From the IMG/VR virus record IMGVR_UViG_3300050119_000088, positions 32,001-96,000 of that record: DNA of 64,000 nt; one strand, given 5' to 3'. Of the stretch, positions 27,901 through 29,602 are shown piece after piece. How positions within the stretch are numbered: the stretch's first letter is position 1; every line of letters begins with the position of its first letter. Below the pieces are notes generated by a model. That model searched no databases and was not told the DNA's origin. It saw only the letters and a list, made by a program, of their open reading frames with translations. Made by a program: the position numbers and the translations under genes. This DNA is from a virus. Its lineage: Duplodnaviria; Caudoviricetes.

Positions 27901-28415
27901 ATAATACTTGAGTTTCAGTTCCCCGAACCCAAGTTGCCTTGCTTTTGAGAGGTTGATTGGAATAAGACTTTTGGCTTTGGTTTTAACCTTGGTTTCCTCG
28001 GGGCTTCTGTTACCGGAGGATAAGATCCTGGTTGCGACAATCGATAAAGATCAGCTTTGACTTTTGGTTTGTTCATCTTTGCTCTGGTAGATAAATGATA
28101 ACCCCGAGCTGGGATAAATCCCCATGTATTGCTTTGTACAAGCAATATCACTGCTCCACTCGGGGGTAACTTTCCAACGTATACGATTGAAAATTACGCC
28201 AGGACAATGGCGTCTTGTTATGAATCGCGGAGACCCAACGTCCGCGTCCATTTCTCAATGTGGATTACTGGCTTCTGGTTCCAAGCATCCACAATCGAGA
28301 GAACAATAGTTGCTCTTGCGAATCAACTATCTTGTATGTGTGTTACTTCGATTACTCGAAGCGCTACACAAAACAACTTCCGAGTAGCCAGACACTACTC
28401 ATCCATAACAAGAGC

Positions 28416-28482
28416 CCTACACCTAGGATTCGAACCTAGCCGATTAACGTCGCGAAACATTAATCGTTTCCTGAAGAGTAGG
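28416..28482 (-). ncRNA. D-armless tRNA-like element with 10-bp arm
   Basis: Acceptor CCTACTC/GTGTAGG, arm CGATTAATGT/ACGTTAATCG, T-arm CTAGG-TTCGAAT-CCTAG. Confidence 0.65.
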
Positions 28483-28558
28483 TAAATCCTGATTGAGTAT
28501 TTGCTTCTAAGAAGCAAATAACGAACCATCTTACAAGGACGACTCTCCCAACCAGGAG

Positions 28559-28760
28559 CGGGCAGAGATGGAATCGAACCACCGACCACAGAAACATTGA
28601 TTGGTAGAATGAAGCGGTGGGATTTGAACCCACGATCAGCGTGAGTTTTGCCAACCAGACTGGCACTCACGAGCTTTTGTCATGGTTCACCGTTGAGCCG
28701 CTACGGCACGCTAATTCTTACAATGATGTTTCTGTTGCTCTACCATTGAGCTATCCACCC
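28559..28760 (-). ncRNA. tRNA-like element with a second tRNA-like fold nested in its anticodon arm
   Basis: Acceptor GGGTGGA/TCTGCCC, D-arm GCTC-AATGGTA-GAGC, T-arm GGTGG-TTCGATT-CCATC; inner T-arm GTGGG-TTCAAAT-CCCAC. Confidence 0.75.
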
Positions 28761-29148
28761 AAATATGCCGATTGAGCAAGCCGAAGCTTCTTGAAATTTG
28801 TACAAGGTGTTCTGCCGAAGCAGTTCAGCAATGTTCAAGATTCCAAGTAATCTCTCAATCAGCCGTTTGACCTTGCGACCAAACGTCGCTACCGTCGATT
28901 CAACGATAACGATAATCAATTGGCATCCCGCACACCACAATCGGGATTAGTCTTGCACCGGCTTTACATGGTAACATATATGAGTTACCTCATATACGCT
29001 TAGCCGATTCAGATTTCAGTGATCCGATCGTAAGATCGAATACTGGAATCCTATGCCTTCCCAACTGATATCAAGTGGTAAGAAGCAACAGCTCATTTAT
29101 TGAGCCAATCCTCCGAAGAGGGTTCGCCAAAACTACTTCCCACCATCA

Positions 29149-29245
29149 GGGATCGCTGGAATTGAACCAGTCTTTCGTCCTTGGAAAATAGATCCTCAGA
29201 GAGGCTAATTCCAAGTTCGACGTGCAGCCGTTACACCGCAATCCC
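29149..29245 (-). ncRNA. tRNA-like element with extended anticodon arm
   Basis: Acceptor GGGATTG/CGATCCC, D-arm GTGT-AACGGCT-GCAC, T-arm CTGG-TTCAATT-CCAG, arm CTTGGAA/TTCCAAG. Confidence 0.7.
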
Positions 29246-29248
29246 AAA

Positions 29249-29346
29249 GGCCCAGCCAGGTTACGAGCCTGATGTGTCACTAATGATTGTATTGAGTCTA
29301 CGTCTCGTAAACACAGACTGTGCAATCATTCCGACACCGCTAGGCC
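29249..29346 (-). ncRNA. D-armless tRNA-like element with long arm
   Basis: Acceptor GGCCTAG/CTGGGCC, T-like arm TCAGG-CTCGTAA-CCTGG, long helix GTGTC/GACAC, AATGATTG/CAATCATT, AGTCT/AGACT. Confidence 0.55.
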
Positions 29347-29602
29347 ATGTAAGGGCCGGGCATAATAAGATTTACCGAATATTCTCGCATCGTAAGATGG
29401 GAGACATCCGACAGTGATCTACAAAGTGTTCCGGCCCCGCACACCGTTGAACGTTTCCGTAACGGGTACTAGTGATTACCGAAGGCCGATTTGGCAATCA
29501 CCTTCCGACTTCACAACGACTTGGCCCGTTGCTGTCATCGGAATCCACACGCCACCGATCAAGATGACGTGCAGCCGGTTCGGTCACTAAGACCGTTCCA
29601 AA

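What the first reader, a model, noticed from the sequence alone, without database searches (positions are those of the whole stretch)
28101..29595. 1.5-kb polycistronic array of anticodon-less tRNA-like RNAs and hairpin modules
Seen: in a genome otherwise packed with overlapping genes, this stretch has no credible ORF and is tiled almost end to end with self-contained folds. Several abut with spacers of 6 nt or less (29353-29437, 29249-29346, 29149-29245, 29065-29148). Five folds have an acceptor-like stem and a 7-nt T-loop arm, but none has a normal anticodon arm at the normal distance, and none encodes CCA. cUUCGg loops (ctcTTCGgag, ctgcTTCGgcag), a GTAA loop and all T-loops read on the minus strand, the direction of the ParB operon upstream. 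Known: RNase P and RNase Z recognise the acceptor/T-arm, not the anticodon; tmRNA, bacterial Y RNAs and engineered tRNA scaffolds exploit this. Inference: a natural tRNA-scaffold/punctuation system in which host tRNA processing releases and stabilises phage small RNAs. These might be decoys for tRNA-targeting defence nucleases or protein sponges. The alternative is one giant ncRNA of the GOLLD/ROOL kind.
Basis: partly seen in the sequence, partly recalled or inferred. Interest (0 to 1): 0.88.

Follow-up and report, generated by a model that had tools for sequence, protein, structure and literature searches.

The report
Phage island of anticodon-less tRNA-like RNAs
A soil/peat phage carries a 1.5-kb gene-free stretch that folds into a chain of stable RNA modules, several of them tRNA bodies whose anticodon loop has been replaced by long helices, so they probably serve some purpose other than decoding.

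Summary
Window 28101-29595 has no credible ORF. Read on the minus strand it tiles into 14 self-closed folds, all more stable than dinucleotide shuffles (z -2.3 to -6.2). It holds 4 of the genome's 6 strict T-arms and 4 UUCG-capped hairpins against 0.2 expected.

Two units are well-formed tRNA bodies without a 7-nt anticodon loop. Unit G (29149-29245) scores 24 bits on Rfam tRNA, with 40 nt in place of the anticodon loop. Unit O (28558-28760) is a Lys/Asn-type body whose anticodon stem runs on as a rod, capped by a second, degenerate tRNA-like domain. No Rfam family covers the region (GOLLD, ROOL, tmRNA, YrlA and group I included).

Two metatranscriptomes hold contigs from 28121-28400. One also holds a diverged homologue with two compensatory pairs in hairpin D. 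Syntenic relatives lack the island and no full homologue was found, so covariation across the array is untested.

Non-decoding tRNA mimics are likely. Release by RNase P/Z is inferred only. Precedents exist: Lak-phage tRNAs with 'enigmatic introns', one possibly encoding a tRNA; irregular-tRNA polycistrons in peat metatranscriptomes; GOLLD with linked tRNAs. Insert-bearing tRNA bodies also recur in other IMG/VR phage tRNA islands. Verdict: a new variant of a known kind.

The parts
29503..29595 (-). Modules A/B: three hairpins directly after the stop codon (29603-29605) of the upstream small ORF. A carries a D-arm-like stretch that shares an exact 12-mer with the D-arm of unit G.
   Evidence: MFE -42.9, z -4.64, 0 of 60 shuffles reach it. 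family D12: 29219-29230 equals 29566-29577.
29471..29502 (-). Module C: 10-bp hairpin.
   Evidence: z -3.47.
29439..29470 (-). Module D: hairpin with a GAAA cap and an inner 5-bp stem, CCGUU/AACGG.
   Evidence: z -2.34; the loose end of RNA-run contig X6 record 9 reads CCAUA/UAUGG in this stem, so two pairs are changed on both sides (compared by eye).
29352..29438 (-). Module E: 7-8-bp all-G/C closing stem plus one long, G.U-rich arm. It has no T-arm.
   Evidence: z -3.33; its 5' strand and junction (29411-29445) are kept with 2 changes in 35 nt in a diverged RNA-run contig, whose distal arm is a different GAAA-capped hairpin.
29249..29346 (-). Unit F: 8-bp acceptor-like stem, one arm of about 25 bp in three segments, and a 4-bp arm with a 7-nt loop CUCGUAA. 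This gives 8/4 geometry. There is no D-arm.
   Evidence: MFE -41.3, z -5.31, 0 of 60.
29149..29245 (-). Unit G: a tRNA body with a 7-bp acceptor stem, a D-arm with GG, a 4-nt variable loop and T-loop UUCAAUU. The anticodon arm is replaced by 3 bp, a 2x2 internal loop, a 7-bp helix and a 21-nt cap.
   Evidence: Rfam RF00005 24.0 bits (gathering score 29), model positions 1-71, with 40 nt where the consensus has 11. E 5.8e-4 for one genome; z -3.16.
29065..29148 (-). Module H: 10-bp closing stem with three hairpins, one capped cUUCGg.
   Evidence: z -2.78..
28950..29064 (-). Modules I/J: long hairpins, one of them 12 bp with a GUAA cap.
   Evidence: z -5.31..
28864..28949 (-). Modules K/L/M: three hairpins, one of them 9 bp with a GCAA cap.
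   Evidence: z -2.68 (plus strand -1.25)..
28762..28863 (-). Module N: 10-bp closing stem with two arms, both capped UUCG.
   Evidence: z -5.21..
28558..28760 (-). Unit O (outer): a canonical tRNA body with U8, A14, G18G19, the U12-A23-A9 triple and T54-A58. It is Lys/Asn-type. Its 5-bp anticodon stem continues as a perfect 10-bp helix and further helices, so that 156 nt lie between the D-arm and the T-loop.
   Evidence: ARAGORN calls it at default threshold with a 129-nt insert. pair I16: 10-nt arms 100% complementary; 99 IMG/VR tRNAs share the D-arm and stem; 0 such calls in 15 shuffled genomes.
28607..28690 (-). Unit O (inner): a degenerate tRNA-like domain nested in O. It has T-arm GUGGG-UUCAAAU-CCCAC and a 5-bp/7-nt arm with CUG. 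Its acceptor and D parts are weak.
   Evidence: RF00005 15.8 bits, E 0.11. ARAGORN calls it only at the 80% threshold; a T-arm-only hit.
28414..28562 (-). Unit P: canonical T-arm (CUAGG-UUCGAAU-CCUAG), an 11-bp hairpin in the variable-arm position, a Y-shaped arm and a weak closing stem. The closing stem overlaps the 3' strand of O's acceptor stem by 5 nt.
   Evidence: ARAGORN 'tRNA-Leu(cag)' with a 59-nt insert; 2 of the 8 acceptor pairs are mismatched; z -4.81.
28213..28413 (-). Module Q1: a closed domain made of a 13-bp closing helix around five hairpins, with GUAA and GCAA caps.
   Evidence: MFE -78.9, z -6.15. pair I11; contigs from RNA libraries of two studies cover 28121-28400. Their changes at 28222 and 28223 would swap a G-C and a G.U pair in the closing helix, if the uncovered partner bases are unchanged.
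28101..28212 (-). Module Q2: a terminator-like hairpin (28196-28213, followed by AAUUUUC), a second hairpin and a 7-bp-closed three-way module. It is followed by the start of a small ORF at 28076.
   Evidence: terminator-like sites at 28213-28196 and 28115-28101 on the minus strand; z -3.75.

Best explanation
The stretch is a phage-encoded island of non-coding RNA read from the minus strand. That is the direction of the ParB gene upstream and the SNF2-type helicase downstream. It is assembled largely from tRNA parts.

Two units (G and O-outer) keep the acceptor stem, D-arm, variable loop and T-arm of a tRNA, so they should fold into the L-shape with its elbow. They have no anticodon loop. The anticodon stem simply continues as a long helix. 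In G the helix ends in a small hairpin cap. In O it ends in a second, degenerate tRNA-like domain.

Three more units keep an acceptor-like stem plus a T-type arm. The rest are self-closed hairpins and multi-branch domains with UUCG and GNRA caps.

Shown: the folds, the tRNA anatomy, the lack of a usable anticodon loop in O-outer, the strand asymmetry, the presence of part of the island in RNA libraries, and limited covariation.

Inferred: the island is transcribed as one precursor. Host RNase P cuts 5' of each tRNA-shaped unit, and RNase Z or E cuts 3' of it. The products are stable small RNAs that do not decode. The tRNA bodies would serve as processing and stability handles, and/or as mimics that occupy proteins recognising the tRNA elbow and acceptor end.
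For: Structure and strand:
- 14 of 14 modules have z of -2.3 or lower on the minus strand.
- The minus strand is 106 kcal more stable than the plus strand, with 73 against 27 G.U pairs.
- UUCG hairpins number 4 against 0.2 expected on minus and 0 on plus.

tRNA anatomy:
- RF00005 aligns G end to end at 24 bits, with 40 nt in place of the loop region.
- ARAGORN with introns allowed finds 2 genes in the window region and 4 in the whole genome. The two insert-bearing ones are both here and both on the minus strand. It finds 0 in 15 dinucleotide shuffles of the genome.
- 4 of the 6 strict T-arms of the genome lie in this stretch.

Non-decoding:
- O-outer's stem ACAGA/UCUGU is shared with 99 IMG/VR phage tRNAs. 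In 77 of those 99 the 7-nt loop reads Lys (UUU/CUU) or Asn (GUU).
- In O the flanks are AACAUCA... and ...CAAUGUU, which extend the helix to 10 bp (I16).
- None of the 8 possible 7-nt loops made from these flanks has U33, in either stem register (read).
- The same phage holds, outside the window, an otherwise canonical tRNA (49.7 bits) with a 4-nt loop instead of an anticodon loop.
- The phage has no RtcB, RNA ligase, tRNA splicing endonuclease or TROVE family match.

Processing geometry (read):
- Units abut with 0-5 nt between them.
- The acceptor plus T helix is 12 bp in F (8+4) and in O (7+5).
- U stands at position -1 before F, G and O.

Expression and conservation:
- RNA libraries of two studies hold contigs for 28121-28400 only, out of the 4 kb laid.
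- One holds a diverged homologue of 29411-29445 with two doubly changed pairs in hairpin D and a swapped GAAA hairpin in E.

Lineage:
- Two syntenic relatives (helicase 38% identical, ParB 44% identical) have ParB and helicase with no gap and no tRNAs. The island is therefore an acquired, lineage-specific module.
Against: - No full-length homologue was found, so helices outside hairpin D and the Q1 closing stem have no comparative support.
- Only contigs could be laid. They show no RNA ends, no strand and no CCA addition. DNA carry-over in the RNA libraries cannot be excluded.
- RNA-library contigs run across the Q1/Q2 boundary, so not every module boundary is a cut site.
- P's closing stem overlaps O's acceptor stem by 5 nt. 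Both cannot be matured from one molecule as drawn.
- In the global MFE, O's acceptor strand pairs elsewhere.
- G's T-stem has only 4 pairs and G has C8 instead of U8.
- E, H and most other modules have nothing tRNA-like about them.
- No sigma-70-like promoter was found in 27500-30300: 0 against 3.3 expected.
Confidence: 0.5

Rival explanations
1. One large ornate RNA of about 1.3-1.5 kb works as a whole, like GOLLD or ROOL. The tRNA-like domains are built-in structural or docking modules and not excised products.
For: [quoted passage not shown]
- RNA-library contigs bridge the Q1/Q2 boundary.
- The global MFE draws several long-range helices.
- The tight end-to-end tiling, with no promoter-like site inside, fits a single transcript.
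Against: - No Rfam match to GOLLD, ROOL, OLE, HEARO or any other large RNA at E up to 10.
- Every module is closed by its own local helix, and every module folds significantly on its own.
- The RNA libraries hold only the 3' 280 nt, not the whole stretch. This is weak evidence because depth is low.
Confidence: 0.25
2. The T-arm-bearing units are real decoding tRNAs interrupted by 'enigmatic' introns of the kind reported in Lak megaphages. An unknown host or self-splicing activity removes the introns.
For: - ARAGORN models O and P as tRNAs with inserts of 129 and 59 nt.
- P would give the canonical loop UUCAGGA, anticodon CAG.
- At the 80% threshold G can be read as tRNA-Pro(UGG) with a 22-nt insert at position 37/38.
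- Lak phages have tRNAs with introns, one of which may encode a tRNA (PMC6784885).
- ARAGORN calls insert-bearing tRNA bodies in 59 of 1148 calls across 116 IMG/VR loci.
Against: - O-outer cannot yield a loop with U33 in either stem register, and no remnant of the Lys/Asn loop is left.
- The intron reading of G needs a C.C mismatch in the stem and an 11-nt variable region. The helix-extended reading gives a 4-nt variable loop and is the one Rfam aligns.
- By inspection there is no bulge-helix-bulge around any insert.
- The inserts (40-156 nt) are shorter than group I introns, and no group I model matches.
- The phage has no RtcB, RNA ligase or splicing endonuclease.
- P's acceptor stem has 2 mismatches in 8 pairs.
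Confidence: 0.1
3. The stretch is a decaying tRNA island: tRNA pseudogenes scrambled by insertions and recombination in a phage rich in homing endonucleases, with no function of its own.
For: - 12 of 125 ORFs match HNH_3 and 3 match zf-His_Me_endon.
- An orphan tRNA 5' half lies directly upstream of the phage's tRNA-Thr.
- O-inner and P are degenerate.
Against: - Decay should break helices. Here the inserts extend them perfectly (a 10-bp rod) and are capped with UUCG and GNRA loops at about 20 times the genome rate.
- The strong strand asymmetry from G.U pairs implies selection at the RNA level.
- The four variant positions seen in RNA libraries are compatible with the helices, and hairpin D covaries.
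Confidence: 0.08
4. The stretch is a DNA-level element of the replication and partition module, such as an origin, parS sites or iterons. The hairpins would be incidental.
For: It lies between ParB and the helicase, near the primase and PolA.
Against: - No iterons or repeated sites were found. The only repeat family is the T-arm motif.
- Tetraloop and G.U asymmetry between the strands has no meaning for duplex DNA.
Confidence: 0.03

Closest known systems
Lak megaphage tRNAs with 'enigmatic introns' (Devoto et al. 2019, PMC6784885; abstract and passages read)
   Same: These are phage tRNA genes with inserts in the anticodon region that bacterial tRNA finders miss. One insert is predicted to be a tRNA itself, which is the arrangement of unit O. 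The splicing mechanism is unknown there too. Lak phages also have large, highly expressed intergenic regions.
   Different: The Lak cases were assigned anticodons (Thr TGT, Tyr GTA), and intron-less alleles exist. O-outer keeps no anticodon loop. G's helix-extended form is the better model. The units here sit among non-tRNA modules in an island with no ordinary tRNA. The sequences could not be compared because the supplementary tables are closed.
Polycistrons of irregular and allo-tRNA-like sequences in forest/peat soil metatranscriptomes (Mukai et al. 2017, PMC5389517, section 16 read; review PMC7609411, passages read)
   Same: The habitat is the same: peat and soil. They are polycistronic runs of tRNA-shaped RNAs with 8/4 acceptor/T geometry, extra loops and five-stem junctions. 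Several were inactive in translation and were proposed to be regulatory. F here is 8/4, and so is the phage's loop-less tRNA outside the window.
   Different: Those RNAs still carry anticodon loops and were linked to Acidobacteria and toxin-antitoxin loci, not to a phage replication module. No long-rod anticodon arms are described in the text I read. Their sequences are in supplements I could not open, so identity with this island is untested.
GOLLD and ROOL large ornate phage RNAs (Rfam; Kretsch et al., bioRxiv 10.1101/2024.12.08.627333, passages read)
   Same: They are large, highly structured phage-borne RNAs next to tRNA islands. Some GOLLD RNAs have covalently linked tRNAs in the linker.
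   Different: There is no covariance-model match at E up to 10. This island is twice the size and modular, with each module closing locally. Multimeric cage formation is not testable here.
Gammaherpesvirus 68 tRNA-miRNA units, MALAT1-mascRNA and engineered tRNA scaffolds
   Same: The logic is what this island may work like. A tRNA-shaped module recruits RNase P/Z, which defines the ends of neighbouring structured RNAs. Replacing the anticodon arm with a payload also stabilises that payload.
   Different: Those are eukaryotic or synthetic systems. No processing data exist for this island.
Bacterial Y RNA YrlA with a tRNA-like domain, bound by Ro (recalled from general knowledge)
   Same: It is a non-decoding RNA with a T-arm/D-arm elbow mimic.
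   Different: There is no Rfam match, and the phage has no TROVE (Ro) family match. As recalled, YrlA has its ends in the Ro-binding stem and not in the acceptor stem.

Membership tests
tRNA (Rfam RF00005) | Covariance-model score at or above the gathering score of 29 bits | tested here: not met
   G scores 24.0 bits and O-inner 15.8 bits. O-outer and P are not reported. The phage's two genes outside the window score 62.9 and 49.7 bits.
tRNA (Rfam RF00005) | 5-bp anticodon stem closed by a 7-nt loop with U33 and a purine at position 37 | tested here: not met
   O-outer: the stem continues to 10 bp, and none of the 8 possible 7-nt loops has U33 in either register. G: 40 nt stand in place of the loop region. 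O-inner has such a loop but at the wrong distance.
tRNA (Rfam RF00005) | 12-bp acceptor/T helix, D-loop GG and T-loop UUCRANY (the elbow) | tested here: met
   O-outer is 7+5 bp with U8, A14, G18G19 and UUCGAUU. G is 7+4 bp with GG and UUCAAUU. F is 8+4 bp but has no D-arm and a non-canonical loop.
GOLLD / ROOL / other Rfam large RNAs | Match to the family covariance model | tested here: not met
   There are 0 matches at gathering score in the 64-kb window. None at E up to 10 in 27600-30100, 28050-28450 or 28750-29620.
Group I intron in a tRNA anticodon loop | Intron of about 200 nt or more with a group I core, and a model match | tested here: not met
   The inserts are 40 nt (G), 59 nt (P) and 129-156 nt (O). 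No group I model matched at E up to 10. The minimum length is recalled, not taken from a call.
Archaeal/eukaryal protein-spliced tRNA intron | Bulge-helix-bulge at the exon-intron junctions, and a canonical loop after excision | tested here: not met
   By inspection of the folds, the loops flanking the 4-bp helix in O are 1+2 and 2+2 nt internal loops, not 3-nt bulges. Excision cannot give U33 in O. The phage has no tRNA_int_endo or RtcB match. Host enzymes are unknown.
Lak-type phage tRNA with an insert that holds a tRNA | tRNA body detectable once an insert is allowed, with the insert folding as a tRNA-like unit | tested here: met
   O is called by ARAGORN with a 129-nt insert at default threshold. 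The insert holds a T-arm and an anticodon-type arm, scoring 15.8 bits on RF00005.
Lak-type phage tRNA with an insert that holds a tRNA | Insert-free alleles of the same tRNA that define the excision points | tested here: inconclusive
   99 IMG/VR tRNAs share the D-arm and anticodon stem of O-outer, but none is an allele of it. No close relative of this phage was found.
Irregular tRNA polycistron (Mukai et al. 2017) | Runs of tRNA-shaped RNAs with 8/4 or 9/3 geometry or extra loops, seen in soil/peat metatranscriptomes | tested here: inconclusive
   F and the tRNA at G000:C1:23175-23242 are 8/4 by inspection. Part of the island is in two soil/permafrost RNA libraries. Sequences of the published polycistrons are in supplements I could not open.
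Y RNA / YrlA | Rfam model match and a Ro (TROVE) partner | tested here: not met
   There is no Rfam match and no TROVE match in the phage. The host is unknown.

The most novel reading that the evidence does not exclude
Uncultivated phages carry a natural counterpart of the engineered tRNA scaffold. In it, tRNA bodies have lost the anticodon loop and carry rods, hairpins or a second tRNA in its place. They are arrayed with other structured modules. They are used as RNase P/Z punctuation and as non-decoding tRNA mimics, for example as decoys for host factors or defence enzymes that grip the tRNA elbow or acceptor end.

This island, the same phage's loop-less tRNA, and the insert-bearing tRNA bodies seen in other IMG/VR tRNA islands would all be members of one unrecognised class. 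An example of the last group is L049 5590-7166, one unit of which holds a circularly permuted tRNA.
Probability: 0.3. Interest if true: 0.85.

Novelty: new variant of a known kind. Interest (0 to 1): 0.66.

Why it matters
Phage tRNA islands are usually read as codon-usage or anti-defence supplements. The 'enigmatic introns' of Lak phage tRNAs and the irregular tRNA polycistrons of peat soils have remained unexplained.

This island gives a clean case in which the tRNA body is kept under selection while the anticodon loop is gone. In O-outer the parent type (Lys/Asn) is recognisable, and no excision can restore a normal loop. That points to a use of the tRNA shape other than decoding.

If the units are cut out by RNase P/Z, this would be a bacterial-virus parallel to the tRNA-linked small RNAs of herpesviruses. 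It would also be a natural precedent for tRNA-scaffold expression.

The side result is that ARAGORN of 1148 tRNA bodies in 116 IMG/VR loci as carrying inserts. This suggests standard phage annotation systematically misses such genes.

Tried and rejected
Homologue searches that found nothing useful:
- blastn 'distant' of 28000-29700 against 50,697 phage records: no match.
- Helicase and ParB as queries in IMG/VR: one relative each, 38% and 44% identical. Neither has the island.
- Helicase in JGI metagenome contigs: the same relative plus a 1.5-kb fragment.
- Exact-pattern scans of IMG/VR with three island motifs: two chance hits inside ORFs (L006, L009) and one empty scan.
- Two pattern scans of GTDB genome contigs: 0 hits.
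- tblastn of two phage proteins against cultured phages: only remote hits of 23-36% identity, so no host was inferred.

Analyses of limited value:
- Arbitrary 120-nt sliding windows gave only modest z-scores because they cut through modules. Module-wise folding replaced them. A first sliding-window script timed out.
- The D-arm...T-loop gapped pattern mostly hit ordinary tRNA arrays. It was useful only after filtering.
- RNA-library depth elsewhere in the island was zero. With contigs and low depth, that is not evidence of absence.
- Sigma-70 promoter scan: none found.

Readings considered and rejected:
- tmRNA: ARAGORN -m found none and Rfam matched only the T-arm.
- Riboswitch and other weak Rfam rows with E above 1: taken as chance.
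- Protein coding.
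Full report
**Setting.** The window is bases 32001-96000 of a 111,971-bp virus record that CheckV rates complete. 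The stretch lies in the replication module, and all the neighbouring genes named here are on the minus strand. Upstream are ParB (30601-31602) and a small ORF with a signal-peptide-like start that ends at 29603. Downstream are small ORFs, then an SNF2-type helicase (25127-27148), a second ParB and PolA. A DUF5906 primase lies on the plus strand at 32510. The phage has a P22-type coat, a GpA terminase and 12 HNH_3 ORFs among the 125 scanned. Cultured phages give only remote protein hits of 23-36% identity, all bacterial viruses, so the host is unknown. The DNA is held by peat metagenome runs.

- No ORF in 28101-29595 is credible.
- On the minus strand the stretch breaks into 14 locally closed modules. 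All 14 beat dinucleotide shuffles (z -2.34 to -6.15), and in 11 of 14 no shuffle out of 60 reaches the observed energy.
- The whole region is 106 kcal/mol more stable on the minus strand, with 73 against 27 G.U pairs. Three coding stretches used as controls differ by 24-46 kcal/mol.
- UUCG-capped hairpins number 4 on minus and 0 on plus, against 0.2 expected from the rest of the genome. GNRA-capped hairpins number 5 against 1.6 expected.
- There are no direct-repeat families other than the T-arm motif.

**tRNA content.** Default ARAGORN finds nothing in the window. Rfam at gathering thresholds also finds nothing.
- With introns allowed, ARAGORN calls two genes, at 28558-28760 and 28414-28562. 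They are the only insert-bearing calls in the whole genome. Fifteen dinucleotide shuffles of the genome give none.
- Rfam in E-value mode aligns the tRNA model end to end on 29148-29245. The score is 24 bits against a threshold of 29, with 40 nt in place of the 11 central consensus positions. Elsewhere it finds bare T-arms.
- Four of the six strict T-arms of the genome lie here.

**Unit O.** The outer body has a 7-bp acceptor stem, U8, A9, D-stem GCUC/GAGC with A14 and G18G19, A26, a 5-bp stem ACAGA/UCUGU, a 4-nt variable loop, T-arm GGUGG-UUCGAUU-CCAUC and discriminator G.
- Ninety-nine IMG/VR phage tRNAs share exactly this D-arm end and stem. In 77 of the 99 the loop reads Lys (UUU/CUU) or Asn (GUU). 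O-outer is therefore a recognisable Lys/Asn-type body.
- In O the stem is followed by AACAUCA and preceded by CAAUGUU. These pair to make a perfect 10-bp helix (I16). Further helices of 4, 5 and 4 bp follow.
- These lead into a multi-branch domain with a small hairpin, a 5-bp/7-nt arm (U33, CUG, G37) on an extended stem, and a canonical T-arm. This inner domain scores 15.8 bits on RF00005.
- None of the eight 7-nt loops that excision next to the stem could leave has U33, in either register. O-outer is thus not an interrupted decoder in any ordinary sense.

**Unit G.** This unit has two readings. ARAGORN at the 80% threshold gives tRNA-Pro(UGG) with a 22-nt insert at position 37/38, a C.C mismatch in the stem and an 11-nt variable region. 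The alternative has 3 bp, a 2x2 internal loop, a 7-bp helix and a 4-nt variable loop. It is more stable and is the one Rfam aligns.

**Other T-arm units.** F has an 8-bp acceptor-like stem, one arm of about 25 bp, and a 4-bp arm with a non-canonical loop. P has a canonical T-arm and an 11-bp hairpin in the variable-arm position. Its closing stem is poor and overlaps O's acceptor strand.

**Other tRNAs of the phage.** Outside the window the phage has one normal tRNA-Thr (62.9 bits). It also has a tRNA scoring 49.7 bits whose anticodon stem is closed by 4 nt. That is an independent sign that this phage keeps loop-less tRNA bodies.

**Known families.** None fits. Rfam gives no match to GOLLD, ROOL, tmRNA (beyond a T-arm), YrlA, group I introns or anything else at E up to 10 in three overlapping searches. 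The phage has no RtcB, RNA ligase, tRNA splicing endonuclease or TROVE protein. It does have a NYN-domain ORF at 15404-15850 and an RNase T-type exonuclease. Their roles are unknown.

**Comparative and expression evidence.** This is thin.
- The two syntenic relatives found have ParB and helicase adjacent, with no gap and no tRNA. No closer relative exists in IMG/VR, JGI metagenomes or GTDB genomes by the searches I could run.
- Two RNA libraries from different studies (permafrost and soil) hold contigs. Within the 4 kb laid, these cover only 28121-28400, which is Q1 plus part of Q2. They carry four shared changes.
- The changes at 28222 and 28223 would turn a G-C and a G.U pair of Q1's 13-bp closing helix into G.U and G-C. 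The partner bases 28403 and 28404 are not covered by those contigs.
- The change at 28190 breaks a U-A pair in the MFE register, but makes U.G into C-G in a register shifted by one. The change at 28185 makes C-G into U.G in the small inner stem of the MFE fold, or lies in the loop in the shifted register.
- One contig of the soil library matches 29411-29445 (2 changes in 35 nt) and then diverges. On one side hairpin D is kept, with CCGUU/AACGG replaced by CCAUA/UAUGG: two pairs are changed on both sides. On the other side E's distal arm is replaced by a different GAAA-capped hairpin.
- Contigs give no strand, ends or level, and DNA carry-over cannot be ruled out. I count this as a weak positive for expression and for selection on structure.

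**Context from other phages.** A gapped pattern meant to find O-like bodies mostly hit ordinary tRNA arrays (116 loci).
- In 34 of the 116 matches the D-arm was not part of a normal ARAGORN tRNA.
- I examined 18 of these loci further. Seven distinct closed bodies of 101-133 nt came out (L029, L030, L035, L065, L081, L090, L131). Their acceptor stem, D-arm and T-arm are intact and they carry long inserts in the anticodon arm.
This count includes near-identical contig pairs and three contigs labelled as giant-virus MAGs, whose inserts look eukaryote-like.
- L049 has a run of six insert-bearing bodies at 5590-7166. Five abut at 5590-6272 directly after ordinary tRNAs, and the sixth (7041-7166) follows an intervening ORF. 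One of them holds what reads as a circularly permuted tRNA inside its anticodon stem.
- These loci are analogues, not homologues.

**Literature.** In the library searched, three things come closest in print.
- Lak megaphage tRNAs with 'enigmatic introns', one of which may encode a tRNA (PMC6784885, passages read).
- Polycistrons of irregular tRNAs in forest and peat soil metatranscriptomes (PMC5389517, section 16 read; review PMC7609411, passages read).
- GOLLD and ROOL near tRNA islands, with tRNAs sometimes in the GOLLD linker (bioRxiv 10.1101/2024.12.08.627333, passages read).

[quoted passage not shown] I found no text describing tRNA bodies whose anticodon loop is replaced by long rods in a phage array. 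Supplements were closed, so overlap with the published polycistrons or Lak introns cannot be excluded.

**Mechanism.** I rank the readings as follows.
- An array of non-decoding tRNA-derived RNAs and hairpin modules, punctuated by the tRNA-shaped units: 0.5. It rests on the 12-bp acceptor/T helices, U at -1 before F, G and O, the 0-5-nt spacers, the local closure of every module, and the missing anticodon loops.
- One large ornate RNA: 0.25. It is kept alive by the contigs that bridge Q1 and Q2 and by the absence of internal promoters.
- Spliced decoders: 0.1.
- A decaying tRNA island: 0.08.
- A DNA-level element: 0.03.

What the mimics bind is open. Possibilities include RNase P, the CCA-adding enzyme, modification enzymes, and defence toxins that act on the acceptor end.

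**Verdict.** This is a real and unusual feature. It is best filed as a new variant within the poorly understood group of irregular or interrupted phage tRNA-like genes.

Noticed in passing
G000:C1:23175-23242, minus strand (outside the window, about 8.8 kb before its start; locus L016 1501-1568): This is an otherwise canonical tRNA (RF00005 49.7 bits) with 8/4-like acceptor/T geometry. Its anticodon stem CUAGG/CCUAG is closed by only 4 nt (GAAC), so it has no anticodon.
   Followed up: partly
G000:C1:17258-17290, minus strand (outside the window): An orphan tRNA 5' half (acceptor strand plus a complete D-arm) lies directly upstream of the phage's normal tRNA-Thr(UGU). A probable homing-endonuclease ORF follows the tRNA.
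   Followed up: no
whole genome G000: 12 of 125 ORFs of 90 aa or more match HNH_3, 3 match zf-His_Me_endon and 2 match AP2. That is an unusually high load of homing-endonuclease-type genes for a 112-kb phage.
   Followed up: no
window 15404-15850, minus strand: A NYN-domain (PIN-like nuclease) ORF, PF01936 at 68.6 bits, lies 12 kb downstream on the same strand as the RNA island. It is a candidate RNA-processing enzyme and was not tested.
   Followed up: no
L049 5590-7166 (IMG/VR contig; near-identical copy in L063): Six insert-bearing tRNA bodies lie here: five abutting at 5590-6272 directly after ordinary tRNAs, and a sixth at 7041-7166 after an intervening ORF. Each is followed by a conserved (C/A)CCUA(U/G) trailer. 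The unit at 5897-6051 holds, inside its anticodon stem, the 3' half and then the 5' half of another tRNA, i.e. a circularly permuted tRNA.
   Followed up: partly
It in 1.68 Mb of shuffled sequence from this window's genome, which is a control of different composition from the loci. Duplicate contigs and three giant-virus MAG contigs are included in the count.
   Followed up: partly
L047, L059, L067, L073, L088, L109, L125 (IMG/VR): A tRNA 5' half (acceptor strand, D-arm and start of the anticodon stem) recurs, followed by a conserved ...AUCCUGUUUUAU-like motif and then a normal tRNA. The meaning is unknown.
   Followed up: no
window 29603-29862, minus strand: The small ORF directly upstream of the island starts with a signal-peptide-like hydrophobic stretch and has a low-complexity P/Q-rich tail. 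It has no family match.
   Followed up: no
L004 3168-7971 and L005 5941-10378: The nearest relatives found keep the order ParB, small ORFs, helicase with no non-coding gap. Their records have no tRNA match. The island therefore looks like an insertion into a conserved module.
   Followed up: yes
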